64,000 bases of DNA from an uncultured Chitinophagaceae bacterium (GCA_964518215.1 CAZFFP010000002.1:24317-88316), one strand, 5' to 3'; numbered from the stretch's first letter, positions 11,939 through 52,661 are shown. Notes: generated by a model not told the origin, from the letters alone. Numbers and translations: made by a program.

Positions 11939-12139
11939 TCAGGAAAATCTTCTTTTCATGTTTTCATTTAACCTGAACTGCGGTCTTCTTTGAGTAGTTG
12001 CTTTTACTTCAAATTCTTCAGCATCTTCTGCCTGCTCTTTTGATTTTTCCCGAGAGAAAACCTGACTAATTTGTGCTGCTTGTTTTTTTGACTTGCCATC
12101 AGATTGCTGATTGCGGAGGTCAGTTTGATTTTTGCCCAT
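11939..12139 (-). CDS. small hydrophilic hypothetical protein (66 aa)
   Basis: The ORF is convergent with cgs and Lys/Gln/Glu-rich, with no recognisable domain. Coding status is uncertain. Confidence 0.3.
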   Translation of the reverse strand: MGKNQTDLRNQQSDGKSKKQAAQISQVFSREKSKEQAEDAEEFEVKATTQRRPQFRLNENMKRRFS

Positions 12140-12207
12140 ATTTATTTGTTTAACGGTTGCTCATAAAAGTGAGCATTATGGTAGAGAAAAGCGTTACATA
12201 ATCTTTA

Positions 12208-12500
12208 CAAATAATTACACCATTCACACTTTGTTGAAGTGGGGTAAATGACATTATTTATACTCCTAAATCTAGTAGTCAAGTCTGTAGCGAAACTATG
12301 TGACTTATGCCTATCCAAAATAAAAACCCTTTGCTTCGCTAATCGAATGTAGTTTTGAAAAAATGGATGATACCCATTCGGTCATCAACTAAATAAAAAT
12401 AAATGAAGTTGAAACTTACAGATCAAAAGGAATTATTTCCGGAGGAATGATACCGAAAATTGACAGTGCTTTAATAGCAGCCATAAAAATCATACAGCAG
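12208..12500 (+). pseudogene. decayed relic of a second acetylglutamate kinase (argB) C-terminal region
   Basis: From 12363 the frame reads MDDTHSVIN*IKINEVETYRSKGIISGGMIPKIDSALIAA. This aligns with the resident ArgB segment VEDEHSFIEKITYNDYEILKEKGIISNGMLPKMENAFYAA. Upstream pieces in two other frames read QIITPFTLC*SGVNDIIY and KTLCF. They align with QNITPIIAPITCNAEGQLLNVNADTIATY and TLALCF. At least two frameshifts and two in-frame stops are present. Confidence 0.55.
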
Positions 12501-18886: not shown

Positions 18887-19600
18887 ATGCAATTTGTCCC
18901 ACATCAATTAAAACCTGTATTAAAAATCTCTCTTGCCATCAATCTTCTCATGGTTGTTGGCATCTTGTATATAGCAGTCAATGGAAAATATCATGTCAAG
19001 CAATTCTTTTTTAAAAATGTAATAGAAGTTCGCCATCAGCAAAAACTTTCAATGTTTCGGGCTTGCCCGGAAACGAAAGGAGCCATTATATTTCTCGGCA
19101 ACAGCATTATCGAGGGAGGTAACTGGAATGAGTTATTTCCCGAAAAATCTATTCTAAATAGAGGTATTGGTGGTGATGTTACTGCAGGTGTTTTAGCTCG
19201 ATTAGATGAAATTGTGAGGCATGAGCCATCGAAACTTTTCATCTGCATAGGCACCAACGATATTGCAAAAGGCCTGGATATACCCACTATCATCGCCAAC
19301 TACAAGTCAATTATTGAAACAGTAAGACAACAATCGCCCGTAACAGAAATTTATGTGCAGTCGGTTTTACCGGTGGGCAAAAAAGTATTCACCGGGCATG
19401 ATAACGAAAAAAATCTGCTCCTCAACGAGGCATTGCAGAAACTATGTACCAAACAAAACATCATCTATATAGACATTCATGCCGAAATGATAGATACCAA
19501 TGGTTACCTCAACCGAGCATACACCAACGATAATTTACATCTGATGGGAGAGGCTTATCTTTTATGGAAAAATAAAATTGAAAACCATCTGAACGAATGA
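18887..19600 (+). CDS. SGNH/GDSL-family hydrolase with N-terminal membrane anchor
   Basis: Block I FLGNSIIEGG, block III GTND and block V DNLHL. I prefer the ATG at 18887 to the TTG at 18851. Confidence 0.8.
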   Translation: MQFVPHQLKPVLKISLAINLLMVVGILYIAVNGKYHVKQFFFKNVIEVRHQQKLSMFRACPETKGAIIFLGNSIIEGGNWNELFPEKSILNRGIGGDVTAGVLARLDEIVRHEPSKLFICIGTNDIAKGLDIPTIIANYKSIIETVRQQSPVTEIYVQSVLPVGKKVFTGHDNEKNLLLNEALQKLCTKQNIIYIDIHAEMIDTNGYLNRAYTNDNLHLMGEAYLLWKNKIENHLNE

Positions 19601-20595
19601 AAAAACTATTTTCGCTACTCACAGCACTCTTGTTGTTTATTCTGAAAATTAATGCTCAACAAACAGGCGATTTTATCATTGCTTTTGCCAGCAATGACAC
19701 TCTGCTAGGTAATGATTCAGTGCGCATACATTTTCATGTTCCGGCTTCCTATCAGCCGGGCGCTGCGGCAAAACTTATAGTGGGGCTTCATGGCATTGGT
19801 AACCCACAAACCCCGGAACAGATACGTAATTATCTTTCTGAAACAGGCGATAGTATTGATGCTATTATTGCCTGCCCCGCACCTTATTTGGGAAATCTGC
19901 TTAAAACAAGCGTGGTGATTAATCTTACGATTGATTCGGTAAAGGCATGGTATAATATGGATACCAACTCGATTTACATTGCCGGATACTCAGCCGGAAG
20001 TGATATGGCAGCACAATATCTTTTGAATGAGCCGGCTCATAGGGTGAAAGGTTTGATTTGGTTTGCACCCGGCTTCTTTTATGAGCCTAACCTCTCGGAA
20101 CAACTTAGTTTTCCACCAACCTGTTTGTGCTTTGGCAGCGAAGATCCTGTATCGAATCTTTTAGGGCAAGTTACTTCAATAATTGACAGCTTTGATAATA
20201 GTCCGTTCCAATTGTTTTTCAATGAAATAGAAGGCGTGGACCACACAATGGAATTTGCGGGGTTTACCAAAGAAATGTTGGAGTGTGTGCGGTTTATAAA
20301 CGACCCCGACAATTTTGTTCCCGATGAACCCATAGCAAGTGTTAATGCACTTAATGAAAATAAAATGTTTAAAGTTTATCCCAACCCAACCAACAGCAAA
20401 TTGATTATAGACTGGGAATCAGTAGAAGAAACAGCAATGTTTAAATTATTTGATTTAACAGGCAATTTATTGATACATGGAACAATAACCCCGAAACAAA
20501 CAATTGATTTAAGCAATCAGCAACAGGGAATTTATTTTATTCATCTCACCACAGCAAAACACAGTGCAACGACAAAGATATTTATAGCGCATTAG
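19597..20595 (+). CDS. secreted alpha/beta-hydrolase (esterase) with T9SS C-terminal sorting domain
   Basis: Signal peptide MKKLFSLLTALLLFILKINAQ, nucleophile elbow GYSAGS, and a C-terminal KVYPNPTNSKLIIDW...GIYFIHLTT domain. The ATGA overlaps the previous gene. Confidence 0.8.
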   Translation: MKKLFSLLTALLLFILKINAQQTGDFIIAFASNDTLLGNDSVRIHFHVPASYQPGAAAKLIVGLHGIGNPQTPEQIRNYLSETGDSIDAIIACPAPYLGNLLKTSVVINLTIDSVKAWYNMDTNSIYIAGYSAGSDMAAQYLLNEPAHRVKGLIWFAPGFFYEPNLSEQLSFPPTCLCFGSEDPVSNLLGQVTSIIDSFDNSPFQLFFNEIEGVDHTMEFAGFTKEMLECVRFINDPDNFVPDEPIASVNALNENKMFKVYPNPTNSKLIIDWESVEETAMFKLFDLTGNLLIHGTITPKQTIDLSNQQQGIYFIHLTTAKHSATTKIFIAH

Positions 20596-24849: not shown

Positions 24850-25036
24850 GCGTTGATCATCGGAAAATTTAAAAGAGCCGAATCGGGGACAAACATAATA
24901 ATTAAGCTATTACAGCAAAATAAAACCAAATATTTTTCAAAATAGATTGTCATCTGATAGTAGCTGACACTACGAGGAGGTTTCTGGCTCCTTTATTATT
25001 AAATATAATGAGGAGATAAAGGTGGTCGAAACCAAA

Positions 25037-25076
25037 ATGTGTGAATGATGTAAGAATAATTTGAAATTATATAACG
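25037..25076 (+). promoter_or_regulatory. bipartite conserved motif, copy M1 (upstream of desaturase)
   Basis: ATGTGTGAATGATGTAA (25037-25053), an 11-nt spacer, then AATTATATAACG (25065-25076). A -7-like TATCATTA lies at 25097-25104. Confidence 0.6.
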
Positions 25077-25119
25077 GATGCTTACAGAAAAACCCGTATC
25101 ATTAACCAAAAAGCATCCG
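25075..25119 (+). promoter_or_regulatory. 5' leader hairpin ending 4 nt before the desaturase ATG
   Basis: A perfect 9-bp stem, CGGATGCTT (25075-25083) with AAGCATCCG (25111-25119), and a 27-nt loop. Confidence 0.4.
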
Positions 25120-25123: not shown

Positions 25124-25849
25124 ATGATTATTCTCATTTTTTTTATTGCCCTTTGGTATCTGTCCCTTTTTTCACAAACCTTTTTTTTGCACCGGTATGC
25201 TTCGCACCGGGCGTTTACTATGAGCCGATTTTGGGAACGGGTATTTTATTTGTTCTCTTATTTCACTCAGGGAGCATCATATTTAAGTCCTCGCGCTTAC
25301 GCTGTGATGCACCGTATGCATCATGCCTATACTGATACCGATAAAGACCCGCACTCGCCCAAATATTCTTCCAATGTATTTTCTATGATGCTGAGCACGC
25401 GCAATATTTATTCGGGGATTTATCGCGGAAGGATTCAGCCCGAAAAGCAGTTTCTGAAAAATATTCCGCAATGGGATGCCTTAGATAAAATTGGTGAATC
25501 TATATACTCGCGCGGCTTATGGACTGTATTCTATATTTTGTTCTTTGTGCTTTTTGCCCAATCGGCATGGCTCTATCTGCTGCTTCCTGTGGTTATTCTG
25601 ATGGGTCCGGTGCATGGAGTTATTATCAACTGGTTTGCACACAAATACGGCACTGTAAATTTCAAACTCAATAATACATCGCGCAATTTGTTGCCGGTAG
25701 ATTTTTTAATGTTGGGCGAGAGCTATCACAACGACCATCATCATGCCCCTTCAAATCCAAACTTCGGCTCGCGTTGGTATGAAATAGACCCGGTGTATCT
25801 GATTATTCTTGTTTTCAACAAACTAAAAATTTTGAGATTGTCGAGGTGA
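25124..25849 (+). CDS. acyl-CoA/acyl-lipid (delta-9-type) fatty acid desaturase
   Basis: Three histidine boxes (HRYASHR, HRMHHAYTD, HNDHHHAP) between hydrophobic segments. Confidence 0.85.
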   Translation: MIILIFFIALWYLSLFSQTFFLHRYASHRAFTMSRFWERVFYLFSYFTQGASYLSPRAYAVMHRMHHAYTDTDKDPHSPKYSSNVFSMMLSTRNIYSGIYRGRIQPEKQFLKNIPQWDALDKIGESIYSRGLWTVFYILFFVLFAQSAWLYLLLPVVILMGPVHGVIINWFAHKYGTVNFKLNNTSRNLLPVDFLMLGESYHNDHHHAPSNPNFGSRWYEIDPVYLIILVFNKLKILRLSR

Positions 25850-25912: not shown

Positions 25913-25955
25913 GCGGTCGGCAGACATAATTTTCTTGCCGACCGCTTTATTTATT
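25913..25955 (+). terminator. rho-independent terminator after desaturase
   Basis: 10-bp stem GCGGTCGGCA/TGCCGACCGC, followed by TTTATTTATT. Confidence 0.7.
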
Positions 25956-26087
25956 GCCTGTTGTTTTTTCTTTAAAAAATCTGTGAATCATGCAACAGAA
26001 TTTCAGAATTGTGTAAGTATTAATGCTTGATAGCTCATCAATTTTGTGTTCCGGAATATTCCATTTATTTTATTAAAACGAACCTCT

Positions 26088-28052
26088 ATGAACACAAAAT
26101 TATTTACAGAAAAAACTTTTTCTGTCATCAGCTTTTTATTATTTATTTTGACCTGCAACACAGCTTTTGCCACAATGCTGGGGCAGGCTTATGTATCAAA
26201 TGTAGTTGCACAAAACAGGCACTGCCTTCAATCAACCACTAACAATGGAGGCATTCAGTTTTGGGACATTACTCCGGGCGGCACTTACACTATTACCTTG
26301 AGTAATGTAATTGATGGTGCCAATGGTGGAACCGATGCAACCATCCATGTAATTGTTAAGAGCAGCCAAACGGGTAATACCTGTGTAGTGGCAACCCAAC
26401 AAGGCACGGGTGTTTACACGTTCGATTTCACTTTATCAGCAGATGCTTGTGCTACTCTGCCTATTTTGTATTGCACCAATGATTGCAATACTAATTCAGG
26501 AATGTTTGCCCGGCACAATAATCTGAGCGTGCCGAATCGTTTAGCGCATCTGCGTGCGGCAAGTTTTGATGGAAATTGCAACAAGACCAATACTGCTGTT
26601 ACATGCAATATTGGTTGTCCGGATTTTTCGGTAGCTGTATCGGTTTCAAGCGGAACCGCTACTTTTTGTGAAGGTGATTCTGTAACGCTTTGTGCTTCAG
26701 GCGCACTAAGTTACTTATGGAGCAACGAAGAATCAACTCCTTGTATTACTGTTTATGCCACTCAAACATTATCAGTAAAAGGTTTCATGGAGCATCATTG
26801 TGAAAGTTCCAATACTCCTTCGGTAAATGTATTGGCGAACCCAATTCCTACCGGTTTAATTGTTGAGGTTTCTCTCTTACCCGTTTGTGGTGTGTCCGGC
26901 AACATGCTTTGTGCTGATGCTACTGATGCTGATACCTATTTATGGACCGTAAGTTCAAGCGATAACTCATGGATAATTACCGGAGGACAAGGAACCCATT
27001 GCATTACTTATACAGCAGGCAGCTATGGCACTTCAGGAACATTTGCTTTATCAGTTGCTAATAGCGTAACCGGCTGTGCAGGCAATACTTCAAGTGTTGT
27101 TACTTTCGGGTCTTTGTGTTTTCAAAATTGCAGCAGAACTCAAGGTTTTTATGGCAACACAGGCGGTAAAGATTGTCATCAAACCACCACCGCTCAAAAA
27201 ATTGCTTCGCTGCTTGCAACCCCTTTGGCTACCGGATTCGGCAACAGAACCGTTACCATTCTTGCCGGAGAAACCAACTGCCTGATGAGTAAGTTACCGG
27301 CAAATGCTGCTCCGGCTGTTTTGCCTGTTGGTAACGTTACTTGCGCAACTGCTACCGGAAAAAATTATCTCAGAAATGATAAGTTTTCAAACGTATTGAT
27401 TGGACAAACCATTACCCTCGGATTAAACCTGCGTATGGATGCTTCGCTCGGAGCTTTTGTAATTTCCGGAACAAAACTCATTACTTATGCTTCAACCAAT
27501 TGTGTTAATGGAACTGCTATTCCCGGAACTGAACTGACATTTGATTTTCCTCAATCGGTTTTAAATTGTTTGGGAAGCAACAATACTGTTCAGGACTTGC
27601 TTAATCTGGCAAATCGCGCATTAGGTAGTGCTTTGCCTGCCGGTTGCACTGCTTCGCTTAGCGATATTAACGCGGCTGTTGACGCAGTAAACAGAGGATT
27701 TGATGCTTGCCGTATCAGCGGAGGTTTCATGGATCAATCAACAAGACTGGGTTCATTTGAAGAGGAGGAAACGTTGGTTTTCGATAACAAATTAAATGTG
27801 ACAGCTTATCCCAATCCTTTCAATTCACACACTACTATTGAATTTCAAAGAACAGGAACAGATGCACATACTACCATAGAAGTTTATTCTTATGTAGGCA
27901 ATAAAGTAGGTGTGATATTCGATGGAGCAACTCAGGCAGGTGTTACATACAAAGCAACCTTAAGCGCTGCGGAGCTTTCTAATGGAATCTATTTATATTC
28001 TGTTATCAGCGAAAATAATATTCAAAGAGGTAAATTGTTGTTGATGAAATAA
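26088..28052 (+). CDS. Cys-rich secreted protein with T9SS C-terminal sorting domain (function unknown)
   Basis: I prefer the ATG at 26088 (MNTKLFTEKTFSVISFLLFILTCNTAFA). There are Ig-like Cys-containing modules (TATFCEGDSVTLCASGALSYLWSN) and a C-terminal AYPNPFNSHTTIEF...GIYLYSVIS domain. A candidate -7 box CAATTTTG lies at 26039-26046. Confidence 0.75.
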   Translation: MNTKLFTEKTFSVISFLLFILTCNTAFATMLGQAYVSNVVAQNRHCLQSTTNNGGIQFWDITPGGTYTITLSNVIDGANGGTDATIHVIVKSSQTGNTCVVATQQGTGVYTFDFTLSADACATLPILYCTNDCNTNSGMFARHNNLSVPNRLAHLRAASFDGNCNKTNTAVTCNIGCPDFSVAVSVSSGTATFCEGDSVTLCASGALSYLWSNEESTPCITVYATQTLSVKGFMEHHCESSNTPSVNVLANPIPTGLIVEVSLLPVCGVSGNMLCADATDADTYLWTVSSSDNSWIITGGQGTHCITYTAGSYGTSGTFALSVANSVTGCAGNTSSVVTFGSLCFQNCSRTQGFYGNTGGKDCHQTTTAQKIASLLATPLATGFGNRTVTILAGETNCLMSKLPANAAPAVLPVGNVTCATATGKNYLRNDKFSNVLIGQTITLGLNLRMDASLGAFVISGTKLITYASTNCVNGTAIPGTELTFDFPQSVLNCLGSNNTVQDLLNLANRALGSALPAGCTASLSDINAAVDAVNRGFDACRISGGFMDQSTRLGSFEEEETLVFDNKLNVTAYPNPFNSHTTIEFQRTGTDAHTTIEVYSYVGNKVGVIFDGATQAGVTYKATLSAAELSNGIYLYSVISENNIQRGKLLLMK

Positions 28053-28173: not shown

Positions 28174-30081
28174 TCAATAATATAACTTACTTGGGTTTCC
28201 GTATTGAACAATGTCTGGTTTCTTTCCGATGAAATTAGGGAAAGGAAAAATAGGATTCAGCGAAACGCCTATGCCGAAAAAAGGAGTTCCCTCAGGCGGT
28301 GAGGGATAAATTGTAACCCTTATATCTATGGTGCCGATAACAAAATGCTGATTATTGAGTCGTATGCCGCTGCTGATGCCCCAATAAGGACGACCTGAAA
28401 ATACGAAGGCATCGCGCTTGCTGAAATAGGTAAGGTCGGTAGATGAGAATAACACCAAGCGAAATCCAAGCAAATGCCAGGGAGTAAATATTGAAAGTGT
28501 AGCTCCGCCCGTCAACACCGCATTACCAAAAAGCCGCTCTGTTCTGAGCCTGCGCAGCCCGTCTAAATCATTCAAATCAACCCGGTCGTTTTCGTTGGTG
28601 CGGTTCAGTCCTCTGATGTATTGCCCGCGCAACTGAATACGTCCTTTGAAAATTTTCTCGGCACCTATCAACTTTGAAATATATAAACTGGTAATACGCA
28701 GCGCTCCGTCAGAGAATTTTTTGTTGTGAAAAAAAAAGCCCAATTCTACGGAGTTGAAAAAATATCCTTGTTTTACAAAAACGCTACTCGAAACACGAAT
28801 GCCCGCATAAGGACGGCTTACAAACTCGCCCAACGAATATCCCAGCGTAACATCAGCCAACAAACCGATGGGAACATCTTCGGTTACTCCGAAACCTTCA
28901 ATCAAAATATCTTTTGCGAATGCCGCACGCGAAAAACCAAAGCTGCCCAACATCAACGTATTTGTCTGGAATGCAAGATTGGTGTCGGCATCGGCAAATG
29001 GACGCTCTGTAACTATGGTTGAAGAAACCCTTCCGGACAATACAAAATTCAGATGACCAAGCAGCAAAGAGTCGCGGGTGGGAATAGGAAATCTGCGCCC
29101 ATACCATCCGTCAAAATTATTGTCGGCCACACGGGTGCGGGCGCGGCTTTCATCATAGCGCGAATAATAGCGAAACACCCGATAGTGGTAGCTCAATCCA
29201 CCCGCGTTTCTGATTTCATGCGTAATAAATTGTCGCTCGTTGCTGATGCGGGCAAGCAAGCTGTCATCGGTAAAAGCAAGATTCAAATCGCCCTGCATGA
29301 AAGTGCCATAAAGATTATACACTGTGTATTGCGCCTCATATCCCATCTTTCTTCCGGCATTGATAATAATATTGTTATAAAAATTTTGTCCCAATCCAAA
29401 CATGTTGTTTTCTTCCAAAGTCAAATTCCATTCATCATATTGAGTGGGCTTTATTTTAATAGAAGCAGAGAACACATCTTTCGTTATCACATATACATCT
29501 ATCGTGTCGGGTGATAATTTTCTTGCAACGCCATATACCCGCGCATCAAGAATAAAGGGCAATGCTCTCAGTAATCGTTCACTTTCCACTAATGCGTGGC
29601 GTGTAAGTTTGTCGCCTTCTTTTAAAAGCATATTGTTCAGCACTACTTTGTCTTTAGTGGTAATGTGAAGTTTGTTTCCCGTTTCTTTCACCCAATTTAT
29701 TAATCGCTTGGAACTGTCCGCAGCAAAAGTTTCGAAAGGGTTTAATTTAGTGATGGTGATGTTGCCCACTATTTTCCCCTTGTGAGAATGCGAGTTTCCG
29801 CTTTTACTCAAGGGCTGTATTGCATGGGTATCAATAAACATTCTGTTGTAATAAAATTTTACCAATTTTCTTTTCTTCACTTTCACAATAGACGAATCGA
29901 AAGGAATAGTAACGTCTTTTTTTACAACGAAAGAAGAGTCGCTGTAAATCACCTTATCATATTTTTTCAGTTGAATATTCTTTTGCCCCTTGCTTGGCAG
30001 AGATAATAGCAGGAAAACCACGAGAAGAAAATGCAGATGCCTTTTCGGACAAGTAACAACAAAATAAAGCGGCACACACAA
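28174..30081 (-). CDS. Omp85-family (BamA/TamA-like) outer-membrane protein
   Basis: 635 aa with a POTRA-like N-terminal part (KEGDKLTRHALVESERLLRALPFILDARVY...DTIDVYVITKD). A long run of alternating beta-strand-like sequence follows, ending in an aromatic residue (SKLYY). The start is uncertain: the track uses TTG 30081, and there is no in-frame ATG in the first 80 codons. Confidence 0.7.
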   Translation of the reverse strand: MCVPLYFVVTCPKRHLHFLLVVFLLLSLPSKGQKNIQLKKYDKVIYSDSSFVVKKDVTIPFDSSIVKVKKRKLVKFYYNRMFIDTHAIQPLSKSGNSHSHKGKIVGNITITKLNPFETFAADSSKRLINWVKETGNKLHITTKDKVVLNNMLLKEGDKLTRHALVESERLLRALPFILDARVYGVARKLSPDTIDVYVITKDVFSASIKIKPTQYDEWNLTLEENNMFGLGQNFYNNIIINAGRKMGYEAQYTVYNLYGTFMQGDLNLAFTDDSLLARISNERQFITHEIRNAGGLSYHYRVFRYYSRYDESRARTRVADNNFDGWYGRRFPIPTRDSLLLGHLNFVLSGRVSSTIVTERPFADADTNLAFQTNTLMLGSFGFSRAAFAKDILIEGFGVTEDVPIGLLADVTLGYSLGEFVSRPYAGIRVSSSVFVKQGYFFNSVELGFFFHNKKFSDGALRITSLYISKLIGAEKIFKGRIQLRGQYIRGLNRTNENDRVDLNDLDGLRRLRTERLFGNAVLTGGATLSIFTPWHLLGFRLVLFSSTDLTYFSKRDAFVFSGRPYWGISSGIRLNNQHFVIGTIDIRVTIYPSPPEGTPFFGIGVSLNPIFPFPNFIGKKPDIVQYGNPSKLYY

Positions 30082-30106
30082 ATATGCCGCCTATTCATTT
30101 GAATAG

Positions 30107-30146
30107 CGTTATATAATTCATTCTAAGAGTTACATCATTCACACAT
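30107..30146 (-). promoter_or_regulatory. bipartite conserved motif, copy M2 (pointing at the Omp85-like gene)
   Basis: The minus strand reads ATGTGTGAATGATGTAA, an 11-nt spacer, then AATTATATAACG. A -7-like CATATTTG follows 21 nt later (30086-30079). Confidence 0.6.
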
Positions 30147-30171
30147 GCGTTTCATTCTGGATTATCTCTAT

Positions 30172-30210
30172 ACATGTGAATTGTATAATACTTCCATTTA
30201 ATTGTGTAAC
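30172..30210 (+). promoter_or_regulatory. bipartite conserved motif, degenerate copy M4 (pointing at the DUF748-mla operon)
   Basis: ACATGTGAATTGTATAA (12/17 to box 1), an 11-nt spacer, then AATTGTGTAAC. A -7-like CATCTTTA lies at 30232-30239. Confidence 0.5.
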
Positions 30211-30248
30211 TCTTTCGGAGGCATTGTAACGCATCTTTACAATGCTTC

Positions 30249-32588
30249 ATGACACGATTTAAAAAAGCCCTGCTGATTGCTGCCGCTTCGATAGTAATTA
30301 TCGGGGTGTTGTTTGTGGCATTCCTTTCGCCCATTGCTAAATATCTGGTTGAAAAATATGATGAGCAATTTTTAGGCAGACAAATCACGCTGGGTATGGC
30401 TTATGTAAACCCGTTTACGGGCTATGTTTATCTCACCAATCTTAAAGTGTATGAATTGAAAAGCGATAGTGTTTTTCTTTCGGCAAAAAGTGTGAGTGCT
30501 AATTTCAAAATGCTTCATCTATTTAAGAAAGCGTATGTATTTAATCACATAACATTAAACGAGCCCAGGGGCATCATTAGTCATCATAACGAAGAGGGCA
30601 TTAATTTTAATGATATTATCGAATTGTTTACGCCCAAACATCCGCGCGATTCTACAAAACAAAAAGTTCGTTTCAGCATACTGGCTTTAAATATTAATGA
30701 CGGAGAATTTCATTATCGCGATGAACAGATTCCGGTAAACTATTTTATCAAAAATGTAAATATAGAAAGCACCGGCATACGGTGGAACGCAGACACCACT
30801 ACAGCCCAATTTTCTTTTTCATCTGGAATCGGAAGCGGTGAAATAAAAGGCAATTACACGTTTAATATTAATAATCTGGATTATCGTTTTGACGCAGTAG
30901 TTGAAAAATACGATTTGAATATTATTGAACAATACCTGAAAGATTTAATGAATTATGGAACCTTCACTGCAAATGTTGATGCCGATGTGAAAGCAAGTGG
31001 CAATTTTAAAAGCCAAGAAAACCTGACTGCATCCGGCACACTATCAGTGAATAAATTTCATTTCGGAAAAAGTGAAGGAGATGATTTTCTTGCTTTCGAA
31101 AAATTAAAATTAGATGTTACGGAGCTAAGTCCCGAGCATCATAAATATGTGATTGATTCTATATTGCTCAGCAGTCTGTTTTTTAAATATGAACGTTACG
31201 ATTTTTTAGATAATCTGCAAACGATGTTTGGTAAAGATGGAGCTAACATTAAATCTGTTAGCGGTGATGCTTCTCAATTTAACCTTGTTATAGAAATAGC
31301 CCGATATGTAGAAGTGATAGCAAAAAACTTTTTGCGTAGCGATTATAAGATTAACCGTTTGGCAATTACCAATGGCAATGTTCAATTCAATGACTATTCA
31401 ATAAGCGAAAAATTTACTGTTGCATTAAGCCCATTAAACATTGAAGCGGATTCTATTAACAAAGAATATAATAGGGTTAAACTATCATTAGAGTCGGGCA
31501 TTAAACCCTTCGGTGAGGCTTCTGTTACCCTGAGCGTTAATCCAAAAGACAGCAGCTATTTTGATATGCAGTATCACCTTCAAAAAATTCCGGTTACTCT
31601 TTTCAATCCCTATATCATTTCTTTTACATCCTTTCCTTTAGACCGTGGAACCATTGATATACATGGCACCTGGAATGTCAGAGACGGAGACATTCAAAGC
31701 GATAATCATCTGGTGATTGTTGACCCTCGTATAGCTCCGCGCATAAAAAATAAAGACACGAAGTGGGTTCCGGTGCCGCTCATTATGGCATTTGCGCGCG
31801 AGCGCGGCAATGTGATTGATTATGAAATTCCGATAACGGGCAATTTGAAAAATCCGAAGTTTAATGTATGGGATGTAGTGTTTGATGTAGTTGGAAATAT
31901 TTTTGTTAAACCCGCCACTACTGTATATAGAAATCAGGTAAAAAACCTGGAAAAAGAAATTGAAAAATCGCTGGCGTTAAAATGGAACGCCCAAAGCAGC
32001 GAACTCACTGCATCGCAGGAAAAATTTATAGAAAGAATAGCGGATTTTCTGGCAAATAACCCCGATGCTGTAATTACGGTTCATCCGAAGCAGTATGCAC
32101 TTAAAGAAAAAGAATTCATTTTATTTTTTGAAGCGAAGAAAAAATATTTCTTGCTCGCTAATAATATTAATGAAGCAGCATTCAGCGAAAAAGATTCTAT
32201 AGCCGTTAACAAAATGTCGGTGAAAGATGAGTCGTTTGTCGCCTATCTCGATAAGCAACTCAACGATTCGATGCTTTTTACCATACAAGATAAATGTGCC
32301 GGTATTATTAAAGCATCGCTTGTGAATGCACGATTCAGCGAATTAAATCAGGCGAGAGAAAATGAATTCCTGTTCTATTTCAGCGAAAAAGATGTTGACA
32401 AGCAAGTGAAGTTTTCTGCCGAAGAAAACACTATTCCCTACAACGGATTTTCTTTTTACAAAATAGCATACGAAGATGAATTTCCTGAGTCGTTAACCAA
32501 TGCATATTTGAAAATGAATGAACTGAATGATGAAGCCCCAAGGAAAAAATATAAGCGAGAAAGGAAACAGAATGCCCTTTCACTTTAA
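30249..32588 (+). CDS. DUF748 / AsmA-like family protein (single N-terminal TM anchor, long beta-rich periplasmic body)
   Basis: 779 aa. It starts MTRFKKALLIAAASIVIIGVLFVAFLSPIAKYLVEKY, as DUF748/AsmA-type proteins do. There are no enzymatic motifs. mlaE follows after 19 nt. Confidence 0.65.
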   Translation: MTRFKKALLIAAASIVIIGVLFVAFLSPIAKYLVEKYDEQFLGRQITLGMAYVNPFTGYVYLTNLKVYELKSDSVFLSAKSVSANFKMLHLFKKAYVFNHITLNEPRGIISHHNEEGINFNDIIELFTPKHPRDSTKQKVRFSILALNINDGEFHYRDEQIPVNYFIKNVNIESTGIRWNADTTTAQFSFSSGIGSGEIKGNYTFNINNLDYRFDAVVEKYDLNIIEQYLKDLMNYGTFTANVDADVKASGNFKSQENLTASGTLSVNKFHFGKSEGDDFLAFEKLKLDVTELSPEHHKYVIDSILLSSLFFKYERYDFLDNLQTMFGKDGANIKSVSGDASQFNLVIEIARYVEVIAKNFLRSDYKINRLAITNGNVQFNDYSISEKFTVALSPLNIEADSINKEYNRVKLSLESGIKPFGEASVTLSVNPKDSSYFDMQYHLQKIPVTLFNPYIISFTSFPLDRGTIDIHGTWNVRDGDIQSDNHLVIVDPRIAPRIKNKDTKWVPVPLIMAFARERGNVIDYEIPITGNLKNPKFNVWDVVFDVVGNIFVKPATTVYRNQVKNLEKEIEKSLALKWNAQSSELTASQEKFIERIADFLANNPDAVITVHPKQYALKEKEFILFFEAKKKYFLLANNINEAAFSEKDSIAVNKMSVKDESFVAYLDKQLNDSMLFTIQDKCAGIIKASLVNARFSELNQARENEFLFYFSEKDVDKQVKFSAEENTIPYNGFSFYKIAYEDEFPESLTNAYLKMNELNDEAPRKKYKRERKQNALSL

Positions 32589-32607: not shown

Positions 32608-33453
32608 ATGAAAAAATTTAATCCCATCATTAAAGTAATCCCCAAGCTCAAGGATGCAAGGGAATTAACTATTAAGCTCAGCGAAAAAACCCTTGCCACC
32701 ACCGAAGTGGCGAGCAACTTTTTAACCGATTTGGCTGATGCGTTTCTGTTTGTGATACGCATAGTAAAAGAAACATTTTCGCGCAAGTTTGAATTTAGAG
32801 AGTTCTTGTATCAATGTTTTCAAATCGGCTATAAATCATTACCTCTCATTTCCATCACCGGGGCTATTATGGGCATTGTGCTCACTATTCAATCGCGCCC
32901 GGTATTGGTAGACTTTGGCGCGGTAGCGATGTTGCCGGGAATGGTTGCTGTTTCGCTCATTAGAGAAATGGGACCGGTGATTACCGGATTGATTTGTGCC
33001 GGAAAAATAGGCTCGGGCATGGGAGCCGAATTAGGCTCTATGAAAGTAACCGAACAGATTGATGCTATGGAAGTGTCTTCTACTAATCCCATGCGGTTTT
33101 TAGTAGTTACAAGAGTGTTGGCTGCAACGTTTATGATACCGCTGTTGGTTTTATATGCTGATGCCTGGGGTTTATTAGGAAGTTGGGGAGCCGCCAATAT
33201 TAAAGGTGATGTAACCTTTACTCTATTTTTCGCTCAAGCATTTAAGCCGGTTGACTTTATGGATTTTTTACCAGCAGTTGTCAAAACATTTTTCTTCGGG
33301 GCAGTCATTGGAATTGTAGGTTGTTATAAAGGATACAATGCCGGGCGCGGAACGGAGAGCGTAGGTATCGCGGCAAATTCTGCAGTTGTATTAGCATCGC
33401 TGCTGGTAATTATTATAGACATGATTGCCGTTCAAATCACCGATATGTTTTAA
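32608..33453 (+). CDS. mlaE: MlaE-family lipid ABC transporter permease
   Basis: 281 aa. The conserved MlaE core reads AMLPGMVAVSLIREMGPVITGLICAGKIGSGMGAELGSMKVTEQIDAMEV. Confidence 0.85.
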   Translation: MKKFNPIIKVIPKLKDARELTIKLSEKTLATTEVASNFLTDLADAFLFVIRIVKETFSRKFEFREFLYQCFQIGYKSLPLISITGAIMGIVLTIQSRPVLVDFGAVAMLPGMVAVSLIREMGPVITGLICAGKIGSGMGAELGSMKVTEQIDAMEVSSTNPMRFLVVTRVLAATFMIPLLVLYADAWGLLGSWGAANIKGDVTFTLFFAQAFKPVDFMDFLPAVVKTFFFGAVIGIVGCYKGYNAGRGTESVGIAANSAVVLASLLVIIIDMIAVQITDMF

Positions 33454-34238
33454 TGATGGAAACAAACGAAACAAAAACTTTAGTGAATACTTCTGCGAAA
33501 GCAACAAGCGATAAGCCGGTTATTGAAATCAATAACCTCAAAAAATCATTTGGCAAAGAAGCAGTGTTAAAAGATATTTCGCTGAAACTTTTTAATGGCG
33601 AAAACTTAGTGGTGTTGGGCAAATCGGGCAGTGGAAAATCGGTATTGATTAAATGTATCGCGGCATTATTAAAATCTGATGGAGGAACGATTAATGTTTT
33701 TGATAAAAACGTGCTCACCATGAAAAGAAAAGAGTTAGGAGAAATGCGGGAAAAAATCGGTTTTTTGTTTCAGAGTGGCGCACTATACGATTCTATGACA
33801 GTGAAACAGAATCTTGAATTTCCGTTGAGCAGAATAAAAAAGAATCTTTCGAAAGAAGAAAGGGCAACAAAAATTAATGAGGCGTTAGAGAATGTCGGGT
33901 TAGCGGATGCGCTCGATAAAATGCCCTCACAGCTTTCGGGCGGCATGAGAAAACGCATCAGTCTGGCTCGCACCATTGTTGTGGACCCGATGATAATGCT
34001 GTATGACGAACCCACTACAGGGCTTGACCCTGTTACTTCCAATGAAATAAGTTTACTGATTATGGATATTCAGAAAAAATACAAAACATCATCTATCATC
34101 ATCACGCACGATATTAAGTGCGCCATTAAAACAGCCAACCGAATCATTATGCTTGAGGACGGAGTGGTTTATAAAGACGGTAAACTTGAAGACTTTGAAA
34201 CTTCTGATGACCCGGTAATAAATTCATTTTTTAAATAA
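33453..34238 (+). CDS. mlaF: MlaF-type ABC transporter ATP-binding protein
   Basis: Walker A GKSGSGKS, signature LSGGMRKR and Walker B MLYDEPTTGLD. A TAATG overlaps the mlaE stop. Confidence 0.85.
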   Translation: MMETNETKTLVNTSAKATSDKPVIEINNLKKSFGKEAVLKDISLKLFNGENLVVLGKSGSGKSVLIKCIAALLKSDGGTINVFDKNVLTMKRKELGEMREKIGFLFQSGALYDSMTVKQNLEFPLSRIKKNLSKEERATKINEALENVGLADALDKMPSQLSGGMRKRISLARTIVVDPMIMLYDEPTTGLDPVTSNEISLLIMDIQKKYKTSSIIITHDIKCAIKTANRIIMLEDGVVYKDGKLEDFETSDDPVINSFFK

Positions 34239-34296
34239 ACAACATTACTCAATTCTCATTACTCACCACTTAATTCTCACTACTTAATACTATATC

Positions 34297-35076
34297 ATGG
34301 ATACAAATTCACAAAAATTTAAAGTTCGCCTGGGGCTATTCATTGCCGTGGGCTTAGCGCTTTTTGTCATAACAATTTTTATCATCGGAAAGCAAAAGAA
34401 TTTATTCAATCCCGTATTCAAGCTCACCACAACATTTCACAATGTCAGCGGATTGCAGGTGGGAAATAATATTCGCTTCTCAGGCATTAATGTAGGCACG
34501 GTTGATAAAATCACCATCATTAACGACTCTATGGTGAGAGTAGATATGTTGGTGAGAAAAGAAATCAAGCAGTTTATAAAATCGGATGGTATTGTAGCTA
34601 TTGGCTCAGAAGGTCTTATTGGCGACCGGCTTTTAATGATTACACAAGGCAATAGCGATTCGCCTGTTGTGGAAGAGGGGCAGGAGCTTCAATCAGCCGA
34701 ACCTGTTGAAACAGACGCTATCATGTTAAGTTTGGCAATAACGGCAGTGAATGCCGAAATTATTTCGGAGCAATTGGCGGAAATAATGATTGGCATCAAC
34801 AGCGGGCAAGGAACCATCGGCAGGCTGCTAAAGGATACAGTGATTGCAGAAAACATGAGCCAAACCATGCTGAATTTGAAAAGAAGCAGTAAAGGTTTAG
34901 ATGAAAACATGGAAGCGCTGCAGCATAATTTTTTACTGAAAGGTTTTTTCAATAAGAAAGAAAAAGCGGCAGCGCAAAAAATTAAAGATGAAGAAAAATT
35001 AAAAGCTGCCGAACAAAAGCAGCAGGAATCTGACGATAAAAAAGCCGCCAAACAAAAGGCAAAAGATGAAAAATAA
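34297..35076 (+). CDS. mlaD: MlaD/MCE-domain protein with Lys/Ala/Glu-rich C-terminal tail
   Basis: An N-terminal TM helix, an MCE domain (FHNVSGLQVGNNIRFSGINVGTVDKI), and a low-complexity KKEKAAAQKIKDEEKLKAAEQKQQ tail. Confidence 0.8.
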   Translation: MDTNSQKFKVRLGLFIAVGLALFVITIFIIGKQKNLFNPVFKLTTTFHNVSGLQVGNNIRFSGINVGTVDKITIINDSMVRVDMLVRKEIKQFIKSDGIVAIGSEGLIGDRLLMITQGNSDSPVVEEGQELQSAEPVETDAIMLSLAITAVNAEIISEQLAEIMIGINSGQGTIGRLLKDTVIAENMSQTMLNLKRSSKGLDENMEALQHNFLLKGFFNKKEKAAAQKIKDEEKLKAAEQKQQESDDKKAAKQKAKDEK

Positions 35077-35116
35077 ATGTGTGAATGATGTAATTCTATT
35101 TACAAATTCTGTAACA
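35077..35116 (+). promoter_or_regulatory. bipartite conserved motif, copy M3 (upstream of the ytxH triad)
   Basis: ATGTGTGAATGATGTAA starts 1 nt after the mlaD stop. An 11-nt spacer is followed by AATTCTGTAACA. A -7-like GAACTTTG lies at 35136-35143. Confidence 0.6.
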
Positions 35117-35203
35117 TCAAACATAGTTTACAGGCGAACTTTGATAGTGAAATTATTTCATCACTTATCGCGCATATAAGCGGGTATCAAAAAAACAACA
35201 ATT

Positions 35204-35488
35204 ATGGATTCAGAAAAAGTATTATTAGGATTTCTTGCCGGTGTAGCAGTTGGAGCTACATTAGGAATTTTATTTGCACCTGACAAAGGTTCAAACACAA
35301 GAAAAAAAATCGCCAGAAGAAGCAATGAGTATGCAGAAGGCATCAAAGAAAAATTCAACGAGATTTTAGAAAATGTAAACACCAAATTAGAAGAACTTTC
35401 TGAAGAAGAAACCACCGGTGCAAACGCCAACAATGGTTTATCCAGAGCAGAAGCCACACAAAAAGAAGTGAGTGCATCTTCTTATTAA
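35204..35488 (+). CDS. YtxH domain-containing stress protein
   Basis: 94 aa. LLGFLAGVAVGATLGILFAPDKGSNTRKKI is the characteristic YtxH N-terminus. Confidence 0.85.
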   Translation: MDSEKVLLGFLAGVAVGATLGILFAPDKGSNTRKKIARRSNEYAEGIKEKFNEILENVNTKLEELSEEETTGANANNGLSRAEATQKEVSASSY

Positions 35489-35507
35489 AACACCACAAAG
35501 CAGCAAC

Positions 35508-35849
35508 ATGGAAACTAAAAAAAATGTCATTGGGTCATTGTTTGAACAAGTAGAAGATTACAGCAAAACCACTTACAAACTTTCAAAACTCAAATCCATT
35601 GAAACCGGCACAATAGTGATTACCGAACTGGTATCGCGCTTGAGTGTCATCATTTTAGTTTCCCTGTTTGCGCTGGTGTTTAATATTGGTATTGCCTTGT
35701 TGCTGGGAGAATTACTCGGAAAAAATTATTACGGCTTTTTCATAGTAGCGGGCTTCTATCTTCTTGCCGGAATCATCGTTCATTTTTTTCTGCATAAATG
35801 GATTAAAAAACCGTTGAGCGAATTAATTATTATTCATGCCCTTCAATAA
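35508..35849 (+). CDS. small two-TM membrane protein (holin-family-like partner of YtxH)
   Basis: I prefer the ATG at 35508 (METKKNVIGSLFEQVEDY). It has two hydrophobic helices and is the typical middle gene of the YtxH triad in Bacteroidota. Confidence 0.7.
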   Translation: METKKNVIGSLFEQVEDYSKTTYKLSKLKSIETGTIVITELVSRLSVIILVSLFALVFNIGIALLLGELLGKNYYGFFIVAGFYLLAGIIVHFFLHKWIKKPLSELIIIHALQ

Positions 35850-35857: not shown

Positions 35858-36253
35858 ATGCAAAAAATAACCTCATCATCAGAACTCAGAGCCGCTATTC
35901 TGGAATTAGAAAGCAAGCATAGAGAAGAAGGAAGAGTATTGAAAAAAGATATAAACGCTACTGTTGAAAGCATGAAGCCTGTCAATATCATCAAAAGCAT
36001 TTTGAAAAAAGTTTCAGCATCAGATGAAGTGAAAGAGAGCCTTTTGAACACCACTATTGTGCTGGCTGCGGGCTATGCGTCTAAAGTGTTGTTTGAAGAA
36101 TTGTCGGGCAAGCCGTTAAAGAAAACGCTTGGCACTACATTGCTTTTTGGCATCACTACCATCGCCACAAAAAATCCTGAAGCAGTAATTATGTTCGGCA
36201 AAGGAGTGTTCAAAATTTTCAGTAATGGCATTAAAAAGAATGAAGCACTTTAA
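35858..36253 (+). CDS. hypothetical protein (third gene of the YtxH triad)
   Basis: 131 aa with an amphipathic N-terminus and a hydrophobic C-terminal half. It is tightly spaced after the previous gene. Confidence 0.65.
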   Translation: MQKITSSSELRAAILELESKHREEGRVLKKDINATVESMKPVNIIKSILKKVSASDEVKESLLNTTIVLAAGYASKVLFEELSGKPLKKTLGTTLLFGITTIATKNPEAVIMFGKGVFKIFSNGIKKNEAL

Positions 36254-52649: not shown

Positions 52650-52661
52650 TTTATACTTTTC

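What the first reader, a model, noticed from the sequence alone, without database searches (positions are those of the whole stretch)
30107..30210. Bipartite ~40-nt motif in four copies with fixed spacing, each aimed at an envelope/lipid gene (divergent pair here)
**Box 1.** The 17-mer ATGTGTGAATGATGTAA occurs three times without a mismatch: 25037-25053 (+), 35077-35093 (+) and 30130-30146 (minus strand).

**Box 2.** Each copy is followed after exactly 11 non-conserved nt by AATT(A/C)T(A/G)TAAC (25065-25075, 35105-35115, 30118-30108).

**Fourth copy.** A weaker copy lies at 30172-30210 (+). Its box 1 is ACATGTGAATTGTATAA (12/17, core TGTGAAT kept). The spacer is the same 11 nt and box 2 is AATTGTGTAAC.

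**Downstream element.** About 20 nt after every TAAC there is a CG followed by an nAnnTTT(G/A)-like octamer:
- TATCATTA at 25097-25104
- CATATTTG at 30086-30079 (minus)
- CATCTTTA at 30232-30239
- GAACTTTG at 35136-35143

These resemble the Bacteroidota -7 promoter box TAnnTTTG. Box 2 therefore sits where a -33 element would be, and box 1 sits further upstream of it.

**Orientation.** Every copy points at the gene that follows it:
- acyl-lipid desaturase (25124)
- Omp85-like OMP (30081, minus)
- DUF748/AsmA-like-mlaEFD operon (30249)
- ytxH stress triad (35204)

**Interpretation.** Three perfect 17-mers plus conserved geometry within 64 kb is far beyond chance. I infer a shared promoter class or operator that defines an envelope-lipid or membrane-stress regulon. 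TAAC...CG is also reminiscent of the AAC/CGT cores of ECF-sigma promoters. However, the spacer is longer than the usual 16-17 nt, and no sigma, anti-sigma or other regulator gene lies in the window. Box 1 also contains two overlapping mini-ORFs (ATG TGT GAA TGA and ATG ATG TAA), which I note but cannot interpret.
Basis: partly seen in the sequence, partly recalled or inferred. Interest (0 to 1): 0.72.

Follow-up and report, generated by a model that had tools for sequence, protein, structure and literature searches.

The report
Stress-regulon promoter with AraC-type operator
The repeated 40-nt motif is a real, strongly directional promoter-plus-operator that occurs six times in this window and across the phylum Bacteroidota in front of stress and envelope genes, and its most likely binder is a small, so far unnamed AraC-family regulator.

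Summary
The window holds six copies, not four. A position matrix scores them 39.5-54; the next best position in the window scores 1.0.

The same element occurs across Bacteroidota. Its layout is AATGTGTGAATnATGTAA, then 11 nt, then AATTGTGTAAC(A), then 21 nt, then a Bacteroidota-type -7 box (nAnCTTTG).
- **Spacing:** the box 1-box 2 gap is fixed. With gaps of 5-20 nt allowed, 126 matches had 12 nt, 3 had 11, and none had any other length.
- **Direction:** 72% of 306 scorable sites have an ATG ORF starting 10-80 nt after the -7 box, against 9.5% in the mirrored direction.
- **Downstream genes:** CsbD, YtxH, small cupins, DUF5670, OmpA/beta-barrel proteins, DUF748, MlaE, YceI. This looks like a stress/envelope regulon.

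The ECF-sigma idea is not supported. The "CG" is not conserved, the spacer is too long, and the -10 region is of the primary-sigma type.

The best regulator candidate is a roughly 186-aa AraC-family protein with an HMA-like N-terminal domain. Its gene often ends inside box 1 (…E-N/D-V-stop = AAT GTG TGA). Of 69 independently chosen homologues, 57 have a site within 2.5 kb. Control loci gave 0 sites in 1.1 Mb.

Binding, transcription start sites and the inducing signal are inferred, not shown. I found no published description.

The parts
30079..30147 (-). Site D, one half of the divergent pair. Box 1 is 30146..30130, box 2 is 30118..30108, and the -7 box CATATTTG is 30086..30079. It drives the Omp85-like gene 30081..28174.
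   Evidence: Exact 17-mer. Matrix score 54.1. The downstream protein is homologous over its full length (25% identity, E 2e-46) to an outer-membrane protein that lies in a motif-driven operon in L060.
30171..30239 (+). Site E, the other half of the divergent pair. Box 1 is 30172-30188, box 2 is 30200-30210, and the -7 box CATCTTTA is 30232-30239. It drives DUF748 (30249-32588) followed by mlaE, mlaF and mlaD (32608-35076).
   Evidence: 1 mismatch to the bipartite pattern. Score 42.0. Pfam calls for the genes. 3 of 4 DUF748 homologues in other loci also have a site upstream.
25036..25104 (+). Site B. Box 1 is 25037-25053, box 2 is 25065-25075, and the -7 box is the degenerate TATCATTA at 25097-25104. 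It drives the fatty-acid desaturase gene 25124-25849.
   Evidence: Score 44.1.
25978..26046 (+). Box 1 is 25979-25995, box 2 is 26007-26017, and the -7 box CAATTTTG is 26039-26046. It drives a T9SS-sorted PKD-like protein whose likely start is ATG 26089 (stop at 28052).
   Evidence: 2 mismatches. Score 39.5. The sequence shows a signal peptide after ATG 26089. Por_Secre_tail domain.
35076..35144 (+). Site F. Box 1 is 35077-35093 and begins directly after the mlaD stop codon. Box 2 is 35105-35115. The -7 box GAACTTTG is 35136-35143, 1 nt closer than the consensus. It drives ytxH (35204-35488) plus two small genes (35472-35849 and 35858-36253).
   Evidence: Score 52.5. 10 of 18 YtxH homologues in other loci have a site within 300 nt upstream, and homologues of the two small genes recur in many of the same loci.
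12164..12232 (-). Box 1 is 12231..12215, box 2 is 12203..12193, and the -7 box CACTTTTA is 12171..12164. It drives a 66-aa Lys-rich hydrophilic ORF at 12139..11939.
   Evidence: 0 mismatches to the bipartite pattern. Score 51.7. ORF listed. Similar tiny hydrophilic ORFs follow sites in L043, L220 and L228.

Best explanation
Each copy is an activator-dependent promoter of the Bacteroidota primary-sigma type.

**Promoter core.** It has a recognisable but sub-optimal -7 box (nAnCTTTG). It lacks the usual -33 TTTG.

**Operator.** The -33 position and the 40 bp upstream are filled by two tandem, same-orientation binding units 21 bp apart.
- Distal unit: AATGTGTGAATnATGTAAc.
- Proximal unit: a T-rich stretch followed by AATTGTGTAAC(A).
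- The two units share the core AATnnTGTAAC.

**Proposed mechanism.** Two protomers of a roughly 186-aa AraC-family regulator sit on these units on one face of the helix. This regulator has an N-terminal HMA-like beta-alpha-beta-beta-alpha-beta domain, a linker helix and a seven-helix double-HTH domain. The proximal protomer abuts the -33 position and recruits RNA polymerase, as class II AraC/XylS/RhaS-type activators do.

**Regulon.** It switches on a dispersed set of stress and envelope genes. In this window these are a desaturase, an Omp85-like outer-membrane protein, DUF748-MlaEFD, the YtxH triad, a hydrophilin-like peptide and a T9SS cargo protein.

**Shown versus inferred.**
- Shown: motif anatomy, fixed geometry, direction, regulon content, and the genomic coupling between the AraC gene and the motif.
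- Inferred: that this AraC protein is the binder, that it activates, where transcription starts, and what signal it senses.
For: **Geometry and -7 box.**
- In 126 sites from many orders, the positions not fixed by the search pattern are still conserved: -4..-1 AATG, A8, T15-19, A25, A36, and A58/C60/T61/T62/T63/G64.
- 211 sites that do not match the exact pattern give the same logo.
- Box 1-box 2 gap: 126 at 12 nt, 3 at 11 nt, none at other lengths, with 5-20 allowed.

**Direction.**
- 298 of 306 scorable sites have a downstream ATG ORF within 400 nt.
- 72% of those ORFs start 10-80 nt after the -7 box, with a mode of 30-40 nt. In the mirrored direction the figure is 9.5%.

**No -33 TTTG.** Positions 36-41 carry little information.

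**Regulon.** Among 150 downstream proteins: CsbD 11, Cupin_2 11, DUF5670 8, OMP_b-brl 7, OmpA 6, DUF748 5, YtxH 5, MlaE 3, AraC 5.

**Link to the AraC protein.**
- A homologue is present in about 24 of 120 loci chosen by motif. None is present in control loci L126-L200.
- In 13 of 23 of these genes the stop codon lies inside box 1, at exactly the same offset.
- Reciprocal test: of 69 AraC genes chosen by protein similarity alone, on contigs not already fetched, 29 have a site at the stop codon, 16 have a site within 400 nt upstream, and 57 have a site within 2.5 kb.
- Over all 88 AraC genes fetched, nine have a site 20-31 nt before their own start.
- Background: 0 sites in 1.1 Mb of control loci.
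- The genes that follow the AraC-adjacent site vary (cupin 10, B12/radical-SAM 7, DUF5670 5, an AraC paralogue 3, others). So the conserved link is between regulator and site, not between regulator and one target.

**Protein.**
- HTH_18/HTH_AraC by Pfam.
- AlphaFold2 model with pLDDT 87.
- The DNA-binding domain matches MarA, SoxS, AdpA and AraC with target TM-score about 0.8. The N-terminal domain matches Atx1, HAH1 and GolB weakly.
- The family is very large and 75-80% identical between members labelled Bacteroidales, Chitinophagales and Saprospiraceae. This fits the near-invariant DNA motif.
Against: - No binding, expression or transcription-start data exist for any copy.
- The window itself holds no AraC gene, and I could not scan its genome.
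- Co-localisation could also arise if the AraC gene were only a frequent regulon member and neighbour, with another factor binding the site.
- The proximal unit lacks the TGTG element of the distal unit, so "two equivalent protomers" is a simplification.
- The HMA-like assignment of the N-terminal domain is weak (Foldseek E 0.1-0.25, no Pfam hit), and only one cysteine is invariant.
- All loci were fetched through the motif or the candidate proteins. Regulon frequencies are therefore not genome-wide estimates.
Confidence: 0.65

Rival explanations
1. The element is a promoter read by an alternative (ECF-type) sigma factor. Box 2 (TGTAAC) would be its -35 element and the downstream box its -10 element.
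For: - TGTAAC resembles ECF -35 elements (my own knowledge of SigX/SigW-type consensus sequences).
- An ECF-type sigma gene (Sigma70_r2/r4_2) lies directly downstream of the motif in L060 and L121-L123, and with a weaker site (score 27.7) in L125.
- 2 of 150 downstream proteins are sigma factors.
- In L060 that sigma gene is followed by a homologue of the window's Omp85-like gene.
Against: - The conserved -10-region bases are AnCTTTG, the primary-sigma -7 box. They are not CGT, and positions 55-57 are uninformative.
- The AAC-to-box distance is 22-24 nt, too long for the usual 16-17 nt.
- Sigma homologues at 40-50% identity in other lineages have no site within 4 kb.
- A sigma factor does not explain the strictly conserved box 1 at about -75 to -55.
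Confidence: 0.08
2. The element is an operator for a different DNA-binding protein, for example a response regulator that binds direct repeats. The AraC gene would then be only a frequent regulon member and neighbour.
For: - Receiver-only response regulators, an HPt-like protein and PAS/CheB-CheR proteins lie next to or downstream of sites in L060, L098 and L046.
- Tandem direct repeats next to the -35 region also fit OmpR/PhoB- or LytTR-type regulators (my own knowledge).
- Co-localisation alone does not prove binding.
Against: - None of these neighbours recurs at anything like the frequency or exact geometry of the AraC gene.
- The receiver proteins seen have no DNA-binding domain.
- The AraC stop codon sits inside box 1 in dozens of genomes, whatever the downstream gene is.
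Confidence: 0.17
3. The element is a dispersed repeat (REP/MITE-like), or a structured RNA such as a leader, an sRNA or a terminator.
For: It occurs in many copies in intergenic DNA, and three copies in the window share an identical 17-mer.
Against: - Strong orientation bias and a fixed distance to start codons.
- Sequence between and around the boxes is not conserved.
- No Rfam hit.
- Folding z-scores of the six copies are +0.2 to -0.9, apart from one at -2.15, and they share no common fold.
- The motif lies upstream of the predicted transcription start.
Confidence: 0.02

Closest known systems
AraC/XylS-family class II activator sites (AraC I1-I2 at araBAD, XylS at Pm, RhaS, MelR)
   Same: - Double-HTH AraC DNA-binding domain.
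- Two same-orientation sites about 21 bp apart, with the promoter-proximal one reaching the -35 (here -33) position.
- The regulator gene lies next to a target promoter and is often preceded by its own site.
   Different: - The sensor domain is a roughly 65-aa HMA-like ferredoxin fold, not a cupin/jelly-roll sugar-binding domain.
- The promoter is of the Bacteroidota -33/-7 type.
- The regulon is dispersed and stress/envelope-related, not one catabolic operon.
- The family is extremely conserved between members labelled as different orders.
MarA/SoxS/Rob stress regulons
   Same: - The closest structural matches for the DNA-binding domain.
- An asymmetric roughly 20-bp site with two sub-elements about one helical turn apart.
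- A dispersed stress regulon.
   Different: - MarA and SoxS act as monomers on one degenerate site in either orientation (my own knowledge).
- Here there are two units with rigid spacing and a single orientation, and the motif is far more conserved.
Bacteroidota primary-sigma promoter (-33 TTTG / -7 TAnnTTTG; PMC7366714, PMC9723704)
   Same: A -7 box (AnCTTTG) lies at a fixed position, with start codons typically 30-40 nt downstream.
   Different: - The first T of TAnnTTTG is not conserved.
- There is no -33 TTTG. That position holds TAAC(A), the end of box 2.
- The motif does not fit the short descriptions in those two papers of the alternative motifs PM2 (B. thetaiotaomicron) and SM4-SM6 (F. 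psychrophilum). Their logos were not available to compare.
Bacillus subtilis SigB general stress regulon
   Same: The gene content overlaps: csbD and ytxH-type genes and small hydrophilic or membrane proteins. That these are SigB-dependent in B. subtilis is my own knowledge.
   Different: Control here appears to be by an activator at primary-sigma promoters, not by an alternative sigma factor. The promoter sequences are unrelated.
ECF sigma promoters (AAC ... CGT)
   Same: An AAC-containing element sits near -35.
   Different: There is no conserved CGT, the spacer is too long, and there is an extra conserved box further upstream.

Membership tests
Bacteroidota primary-sigma (-33/-7) promoter | -7 box TAnnTTTG at a fixed short distance upstream of the transcript or gene start | tested here: met
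   A58 in 111, T61 in 124, T62 in 125, T63 in 108 and G64 in 79 of 126 sites, at positions the search did not select. ORF starts peak 30-40 nt downstream. The first T of the box is not conserved.
Bacteroidota primary-sigma (-33/-7) promoter | -33 TTTG element | tested here: not met
   Positions 36-41 carry 0.7 bit or less each. The slot holds TAAC(A) from box 2. This is why I infer dependence on an activator.
Bacteroidota primary-sigma (-33/-7) promoter | Mapped transcription start downstream of the -7 box | not testable with these tools
   No RNA data were available for any genome that carries the motif.
AraC/XylS-family activator operator | A cognate protein with the AraC double-HTH DNA-binding domain | tested here: met
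   HTH_18 at 1.6e-15 to 3e-16 and HTH_AraC. Foldseek matches to MarA, SoxS, AdpA and the AraC DNA-binding domain with target TM-score about 0.8.
AraC/XylS-family activator operator | Tandem direct-repeat half-sites about 21 bp apart, with the proximal one reaching the -35 region | tested here: met
   AATnATGTAAc at positions 4-14 and AATTGTGTAAC at positions 25-35. The gap is fixed (126 of 129). Box 2 ends 21 nt before the -7 box. Placing it at -33 assumes the usual -7-box-to-start distance.
AraC/XylS-family activator operator | Genomic coupling of the regulator gene and its site | tested here: met
   Of 69 independent AraC genes, 57 have a site within 2.5 kb, 29 have one at the stop codon and 16 have one within 400 nt upstream. 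Control loci gave 0 sites in 1.1 Mb.
AraC/XylS-family activator operator | Direct, sequence-specific binding and activation | not testable with these tools
   This needs EMSA or DAP-seq, a deletion mutant, and reporter assays.
ECF sigma promoter | Conserved CGT-type -10 element 16-17 nt after the AAC of the -35 element | tested here: not met
   Positions 52-57 are uninformative. The conserved bases start 22 nt after AAC and read AnCTTTG.
ECF sigma promoter | Autoregulated cognate sigma gene carrying the motif across lineages | tested here: not met
   The motif precedes the sigma gene only in L060, L121-L123 and L125. It is absent within 4 kb of the relatives L126-L164.
REP/MITE-like dispersed repeat | No orientation bias relative to genes; palindromic or structured; flanks co-conserved | tested here: not met
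   72% against 9.5% orientation bias. Flanks and spacers are unconserved. No folding signal.
Known RNA family | Match to an Rfam covariance model | tested here: not met
   0 hits at gathering threshold in the whole window.

The most novel reading that the evidence does not exclude
This motif is the cis-element of a phylum-wide general stress and envelope response in Bacteroidota, a phylum not known to have RpoS or SigB (my own knowledge). The response would be run not by an alternative sigma factor but by a highly conserved one-component regulator, an HMA-like domain fused to an AraC domain. That regulator would sense a redox or metal cue through its single invariant cysteine. Its gene would be physically fused to its own operator, with the stop codon inside box 1.
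Probability: 0.35. Interest if true: 0.78.

Novelty: new member of a known kind. Interest (0 to 1): 0.62.

Why it matters
How Bacteroidota coordinate general stress and envelope-stress genes is poorly understood, and the promoter studies I could read describe no such element.

A roughly 70-bp promoter/operator that is almost invariant across Bacteroidales, Chitinophagales, Cytophagales, Saprospiraceae and Balneolales, together with a concrete candidate regulator, makes the question directly testable:
- one protein to purify or delete;
- one motif to mutate;
- a predicted regulon to check.

It would give names and a shared context to many "hypothetical" small proteins, among them CsbD, YtxH, DUF5670, small cupins and Lys-rich peptides. 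It would link lipid-asymmetry (Mla/DUF748) and desaturase genes to the same response. It could also provide a compact inducible promoter for Bacteroidota genetics.

Tried and rejected
**Hypotheses tested and dropped.**
- **ECF-sigma promoter.** I tested it through conservation of the CG/CGT, through spacing, and by fetching 80 loci around relatives of the one sigma gene found downstream of the motif. It was rejected.
- **Structured RNA.** Rfam found nothing in the whole window. RNA folding of the six copies showed no shared or unusually stable structure.
- **E. coli-type promoter.** The sigma-70 scan of 24.8-36.4 kb found 35 sites against 32.7 expected, so it is uninformative.

**Literature.** Seven full-text searches found no description of the motif or the regulator. 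They covered TAnnTTTG with stress, the motif core, CsbD/YtxH, general stress response, AraC with direct repeats, and HMA with AraC. Going by the short text descriptions I read, the PM2 and SM4-SM6 motifs of the two Bacteroidota transcription-start papers are different; their logos were not available.

**Steps that failed or could not be done.**
- A look-up of the window's desaturase in the contig index, to identify the source genome, found no record.
It was redone with database homologues.
- A phyletic co-occurrence test of motif against regulator over whole genomes was not possible.

Full report
**1.

The 17-mer ATGTGTGAATGATGTAA is present without mismatch at 25037-25053 (+), 35077-35093 (+) and 30146..30130 (-). 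Each copy is followed after 11 nt by AATT(A/C)T(A/G)TAAC.

A relaxed bipartite pattern, TGTGAATNNTGTAA-N12-ATTNTRTAAC, finds six sites with up to 3 mismatches, against 0.00 expected from shuffles.
- 12228 (-), with 0 mismatches;
- 25982 (+), with 2 mismatches.

I built a 74-column position matrix from sites in other genomes. It scores the six window sites 39.5-54.1. The next best position on either strand of the 64 kb scores 1.0.

All six sites point at a gene:

| Site | Position of the first T of TGTGAAT (strand) | Gene driven |
|---|---|---|
| A | 12228 (-) | 66-aa Lys-rich ORF, 12139..11939 |
| B | 25040 (+) | fatty-acid desaturase, 25124 |
| C | 25982 (+) | T9SS-sorted protein, real start probably ATG 26089, with a signal peptide |
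| D | 30143 (-) | Omp85-like outer-membrane protein |
| E | 30175 (+) | DUF748 followed by mlaE, mlaF and mlaD |
| F | 35080 (+) | ytxH plus two small genes |

Pfam supports these gene calls. The exceptions are "Omp85-like", which rests only on a sub-threshold POTRA hit, and the 66-aa ORF of site A, which has no Pfam match.

**2. The element is conserved across a phylum, with rigid geometry**

The hits were spread over Bacteroidales, Chitinophagales, Saprospiraceae, Cytophagales, Sphingobacteriales and a Lutibacter, plus a few bins labelled as other phyla (an Ignavibacteriae and a Syntrophales MAG).

Positions below are numbered from the first T of TGTGAAT, which is 0. Stacking 126 sites shows conservation at positions the pattern did not fix:
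- AATG at -4 to -1;
- A8;
- a T-rich run at 15-19;
- A25 and A36;
- A58 (111 sites), C60 (81), T61 (124), T62 (125), T63 (108) and G64 (79).

The last group is the Bacteroidota -7 box, TAnnTTTG as described in PMC7366714 and PMC9723704, but without its first T. It lies at a fixed distance from box 2.

Other points on geometry:
- Positions 36-41, where a -33 TTTG would lie, are nearly so.
- 211 further sites that are not exact pattern matches give the same logo.
- When 5-20 nt were allowed between the two boxes, 126 matches had 12 nt, 3 had 11 nt and none had any other length.

**3. It behaves as a promoter**

The matrix found 326 unique sites above a score of 35. Of these, 306 had enough downstream sequence to assess.
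- 298 have an ATG ORF of at least 40 aa within 400 nt downstream.
- 72% of the 306 start 10-80 nt after the -7 box, with a mode of 30-40 nt.
- In the mirrored direction the figure is 9.5%.

Flanks and spacers are not conserved. Rfam finds nothing. The six copies show no shared or unusually stable RNA fold. I therefore reject the REP/MITE and RNA-element readings.

**4. What it controls**

Pfam families among 150 randomly chosen downstream proteins:

| Family | Count |
|---|---|
| CsbD | 11 |
| Cupin_2 | 11 |
| DUF5670 | 8 |
| OMP_b-brl | 7 |
| OmpA | 6 |
| Big_5 | 5 |
| DUF748 | 5 |
| YtxH | 5 |
| AraC-type HTH | 5 |
| Ice_binding | 4 |
| B12/radical-SAM | 4 |
| MlaE | 3 |
| YceI | 2 |
| ECF sigma | 2 |

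Homologues of the window's own targets elsewhere also carry the site:
- DUF748: 3 of 4;
- MlaE: directly upstream in L090 and L067;
- YtxH: 10 of 18. Homologues of the two small genes that follow ytxH recur in many of the same loci.

These loci were fetched through the motif or through the regulator. They show recurrence, not unbiased frequency. The overall theme is general and envelope stress.

**5. It is not an ECF promoter**

Three things argue against the ECF reading: the missing CGT, the 22-24 nt distance from AAC to the conserved downstream bases, and the primary-sigma look of that box.

One ECF-type sigma gene lies directly behind the motif in L060, followed by a homologue of the window's Omp85-like gene (25% identity over the full length, E 2e-46). 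I fetched 80 loci around relatives of that sigma. Only its closest relatives (L121-L123 and L125) keep the motif. L124 (95% identity) and the 39-53%-identical relatives L126-L164, mostly Saprospiraceae, Hymenobacter, Echinicola, Chitinophagales and Bacteroidales, have no site scoring above 15 within 4 kb. So this sigma gene is a clade-specific regulon member, not the reader of the motif.

**6. The candidate regulator**

A tblastn search with the regulatory proteins seen downstream of sites showed that one of them recurs. It is a roughly 183-193-aa AraC-family protein, present in about 24 of the 120 motif-selected loci and in none of the sigma-selected control loci L126-L200.

In 13 of 23 of these genes, the first T of TGTGAAT lies exactly 5 nt before the end of the gene. 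The protein ends …E-(N/D)-V-stop, encoded as GAA AAT GTG TGA, so the stop codon is the TGA inside TGTGAAT.

For the reciprocal test I fetched 80 loci chosen only by similarity to this protein. They hold 88 such genes:
- 44 have a site at or just after the stop codon;
- 21 have a site within 400 nt upstream of their start, nine of them 20-31 nt before the start, which is the position of their own promoter;
- 76 have at least one same-strand site within 2.5 kb.

After removing the 19 genes already present in motif-selected loci, the 69 independent genes give 29, 16 and 57 for the same three counts. The control loci give 0 sites above a score of 20 in 1.1 Mb.

The gene that follows the AraC-adjacent site varies: cupin 10, B12/radical-SAM 7, DUF5670 5, another AraC paralogue 3, and others. 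The conserved coupling is therefore between regulator and site.

Properties of the protein:
- It carries HTH_18/HTH_AraC and reaches no specific NCBIfam family cut-off.
- The family is very large.
- Members labelled Bacteroidales, Chitinophagales and Saprospiraceae are 75-80% identical to the query.
- An AlphaFold2 model (pLDDT 87) shows a beta-alpha-beta-beta-alpha-beta domain (residues 1-62), a linker helix, and a seven-helix AraC DNA-binding domain.
- Foldseek matches the DNA-binding domain to MarA, SoxS, AdpA, AraC and the YesN C-terminal domain with target TM-score about 0.8. The N-terminal domain matches HMA metallochaperones (Atx1, HAH1, GolB) only weakly, at E 0.1-0.25.
- The sequence M-V-[C/S]-x-R-C recalls the HMA MxCxxC loop. 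Only the second cysteine is invariant.

**7. Proposed mechanism (inferred)**

The motif reads as two same-orientation units 21 bp apart that share the core AATnnTGTAAC.
- The distal unit (-4 to 14) adds a TGTG element about one helical turn upstream of TGTAA. This is what a double-HTH AraC domain would contact in two adjacent major grooves.
- The proximal unit (17 to 35) ends where the -33 element should be.

With a sub-optimal -7 box and no -33 TTTG, the promoter should be weak on its own. It would be switched on by two protomers bound on one face of the DNA, with the proximal one touching RNA polymerase. This is the arrangement known for AraC (I1-I2), XylS, RhaS and MelR; that comparison rests on my own knowledge.

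The signal is unknown. The HMA-like domain and its invariant cysteine suggest a thiol/redox or metal cue. That is speculation.

**8. Novelty**

In seven full-text searches and two transcription-start papers I found no description of this motif, this regulator subfamily or this regulon. In kind it is ordinary: an AraC-family activator with tandem sites. In scope it is not: near-invariant across much of the phylum, with general-stress-like content, a regulator gene that overlaps its own operator, and an unusual sensor domain.

**9. Limits**

- There are no expression or binding data.
- The window's genome could not be identified or scanned.
- All comparative loci were reached through the motif or the candidate proteins.
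- The matrix was trained on exact-pattern sites, so the logo from non-exact sites leans toward it.

Noticed in passing
window 30067-30092 (-) and 30075/30081: The -7 box of site D (30086..30079) overlaps the only in-frame start candidates of the Omp85-like ORF (TTG 30081, GTG 30075). It also sits in the loop of a GC-rich hairpin that the scan flagged as terminator-like. Either the mRNA is leaderless or the start codon is mis-called.
   Followed up: partly
window 30232-30251: At site E the ATG of the DUF748 gene (30249) lies only 10 nt after the -7 box, so the leader would be about 5 nt. A 3-codon ATG (30242) overlaps it.
   Followed up: no
window 35136-35143, 12164-12171 and 25097-25104: The -7 box of site F, and probably that of site A, is 1 nt closer to box 2 than the phylum consensus. 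The -7 box of site B (TATCATTA) has A at the almost invariant T61, so the desaturase promoter may be the weakest.
   Followed up: partly
L201 2501-3944; L219 2501-3760; L234 2495-4290; L258 2501-3819: There are tandem paralogues of the AraC-family regulator with a motif site between them. The first gene's stop codon lies in box 1 of the promoter that drives, or lies ahead of, the second gene. This suggests a cascade or feedback arrangement, and two subfamilies: one ending …ENV/EDV-stop, the other longer and carrying the site in its own promoter.
   Followed up: partly
L060 36-7017 (also L121-L123): Gene order: an HPt-like protein, a receiver-only response regulator, a motif site, an ECF sigma gene, an Omp85-like outer-membrane protein (homologue of window 28174-30081), a 61-aa membrane protein, then a CheB/CheR/PAS protein. 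This may be a signalling module tied to the regulon in one clade.
   Followed up: partly
window 3244-11925 (+): A 2893-aa GH94 protein (supersandwich plus catalytic domains), which resembles a cyclic beta-1,2-glucan synthase (my own reading of the domain set). It is convergent with the 66-aa Lys-rich ORF driven by site A. It fits an osmotic/envelope theme but has no site of its own.
   Followed up: no
window 11939-12139 (-); L043, L220, L228: Very small, Lys/Ser-rich, highly hydrophilic ORFs of 44-66 aa recur directly downstream of sites in unrelated genomes. They are hydrophilin- or LEA-like candidates and have no Pfam family.
   Followed up: no
window 25915-25947 (+): A GC-rich hairpin followed by a T-run lies after the desaturase gene, just upstream of site C. 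Desaturase and the T9SS-sorted gene are therefore probably separate transcription units.
   Followed up: no
window 19597-20595, 26089-28052 and 44688-62581: Seven proteins carry the T9SS C-terminal sorting domain (Por_Secre_tail), five of them between 44.7 and 62.6 kb. The ORF at 62656-63999 (-) has a Peptidase_S74 (endosialidase chaperone) domain.
   Followed up: no
L281 685-719; L283 2992-3026; L282 793-827: There are rare variants of the motif with an 11-nt rather than a 12-nt gap between TGTAA and ATT. Two of the three are near-identical sequences from two Bacteroidales MAGs.
   Followed up: no
loci: Ice_binding-like (4 of 150) and Big_5 (5 of 150) surface proteins are repeatedly driven by the motif, which hints at a cold or surface-remodelling component of the regulon.
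   Followed up: no
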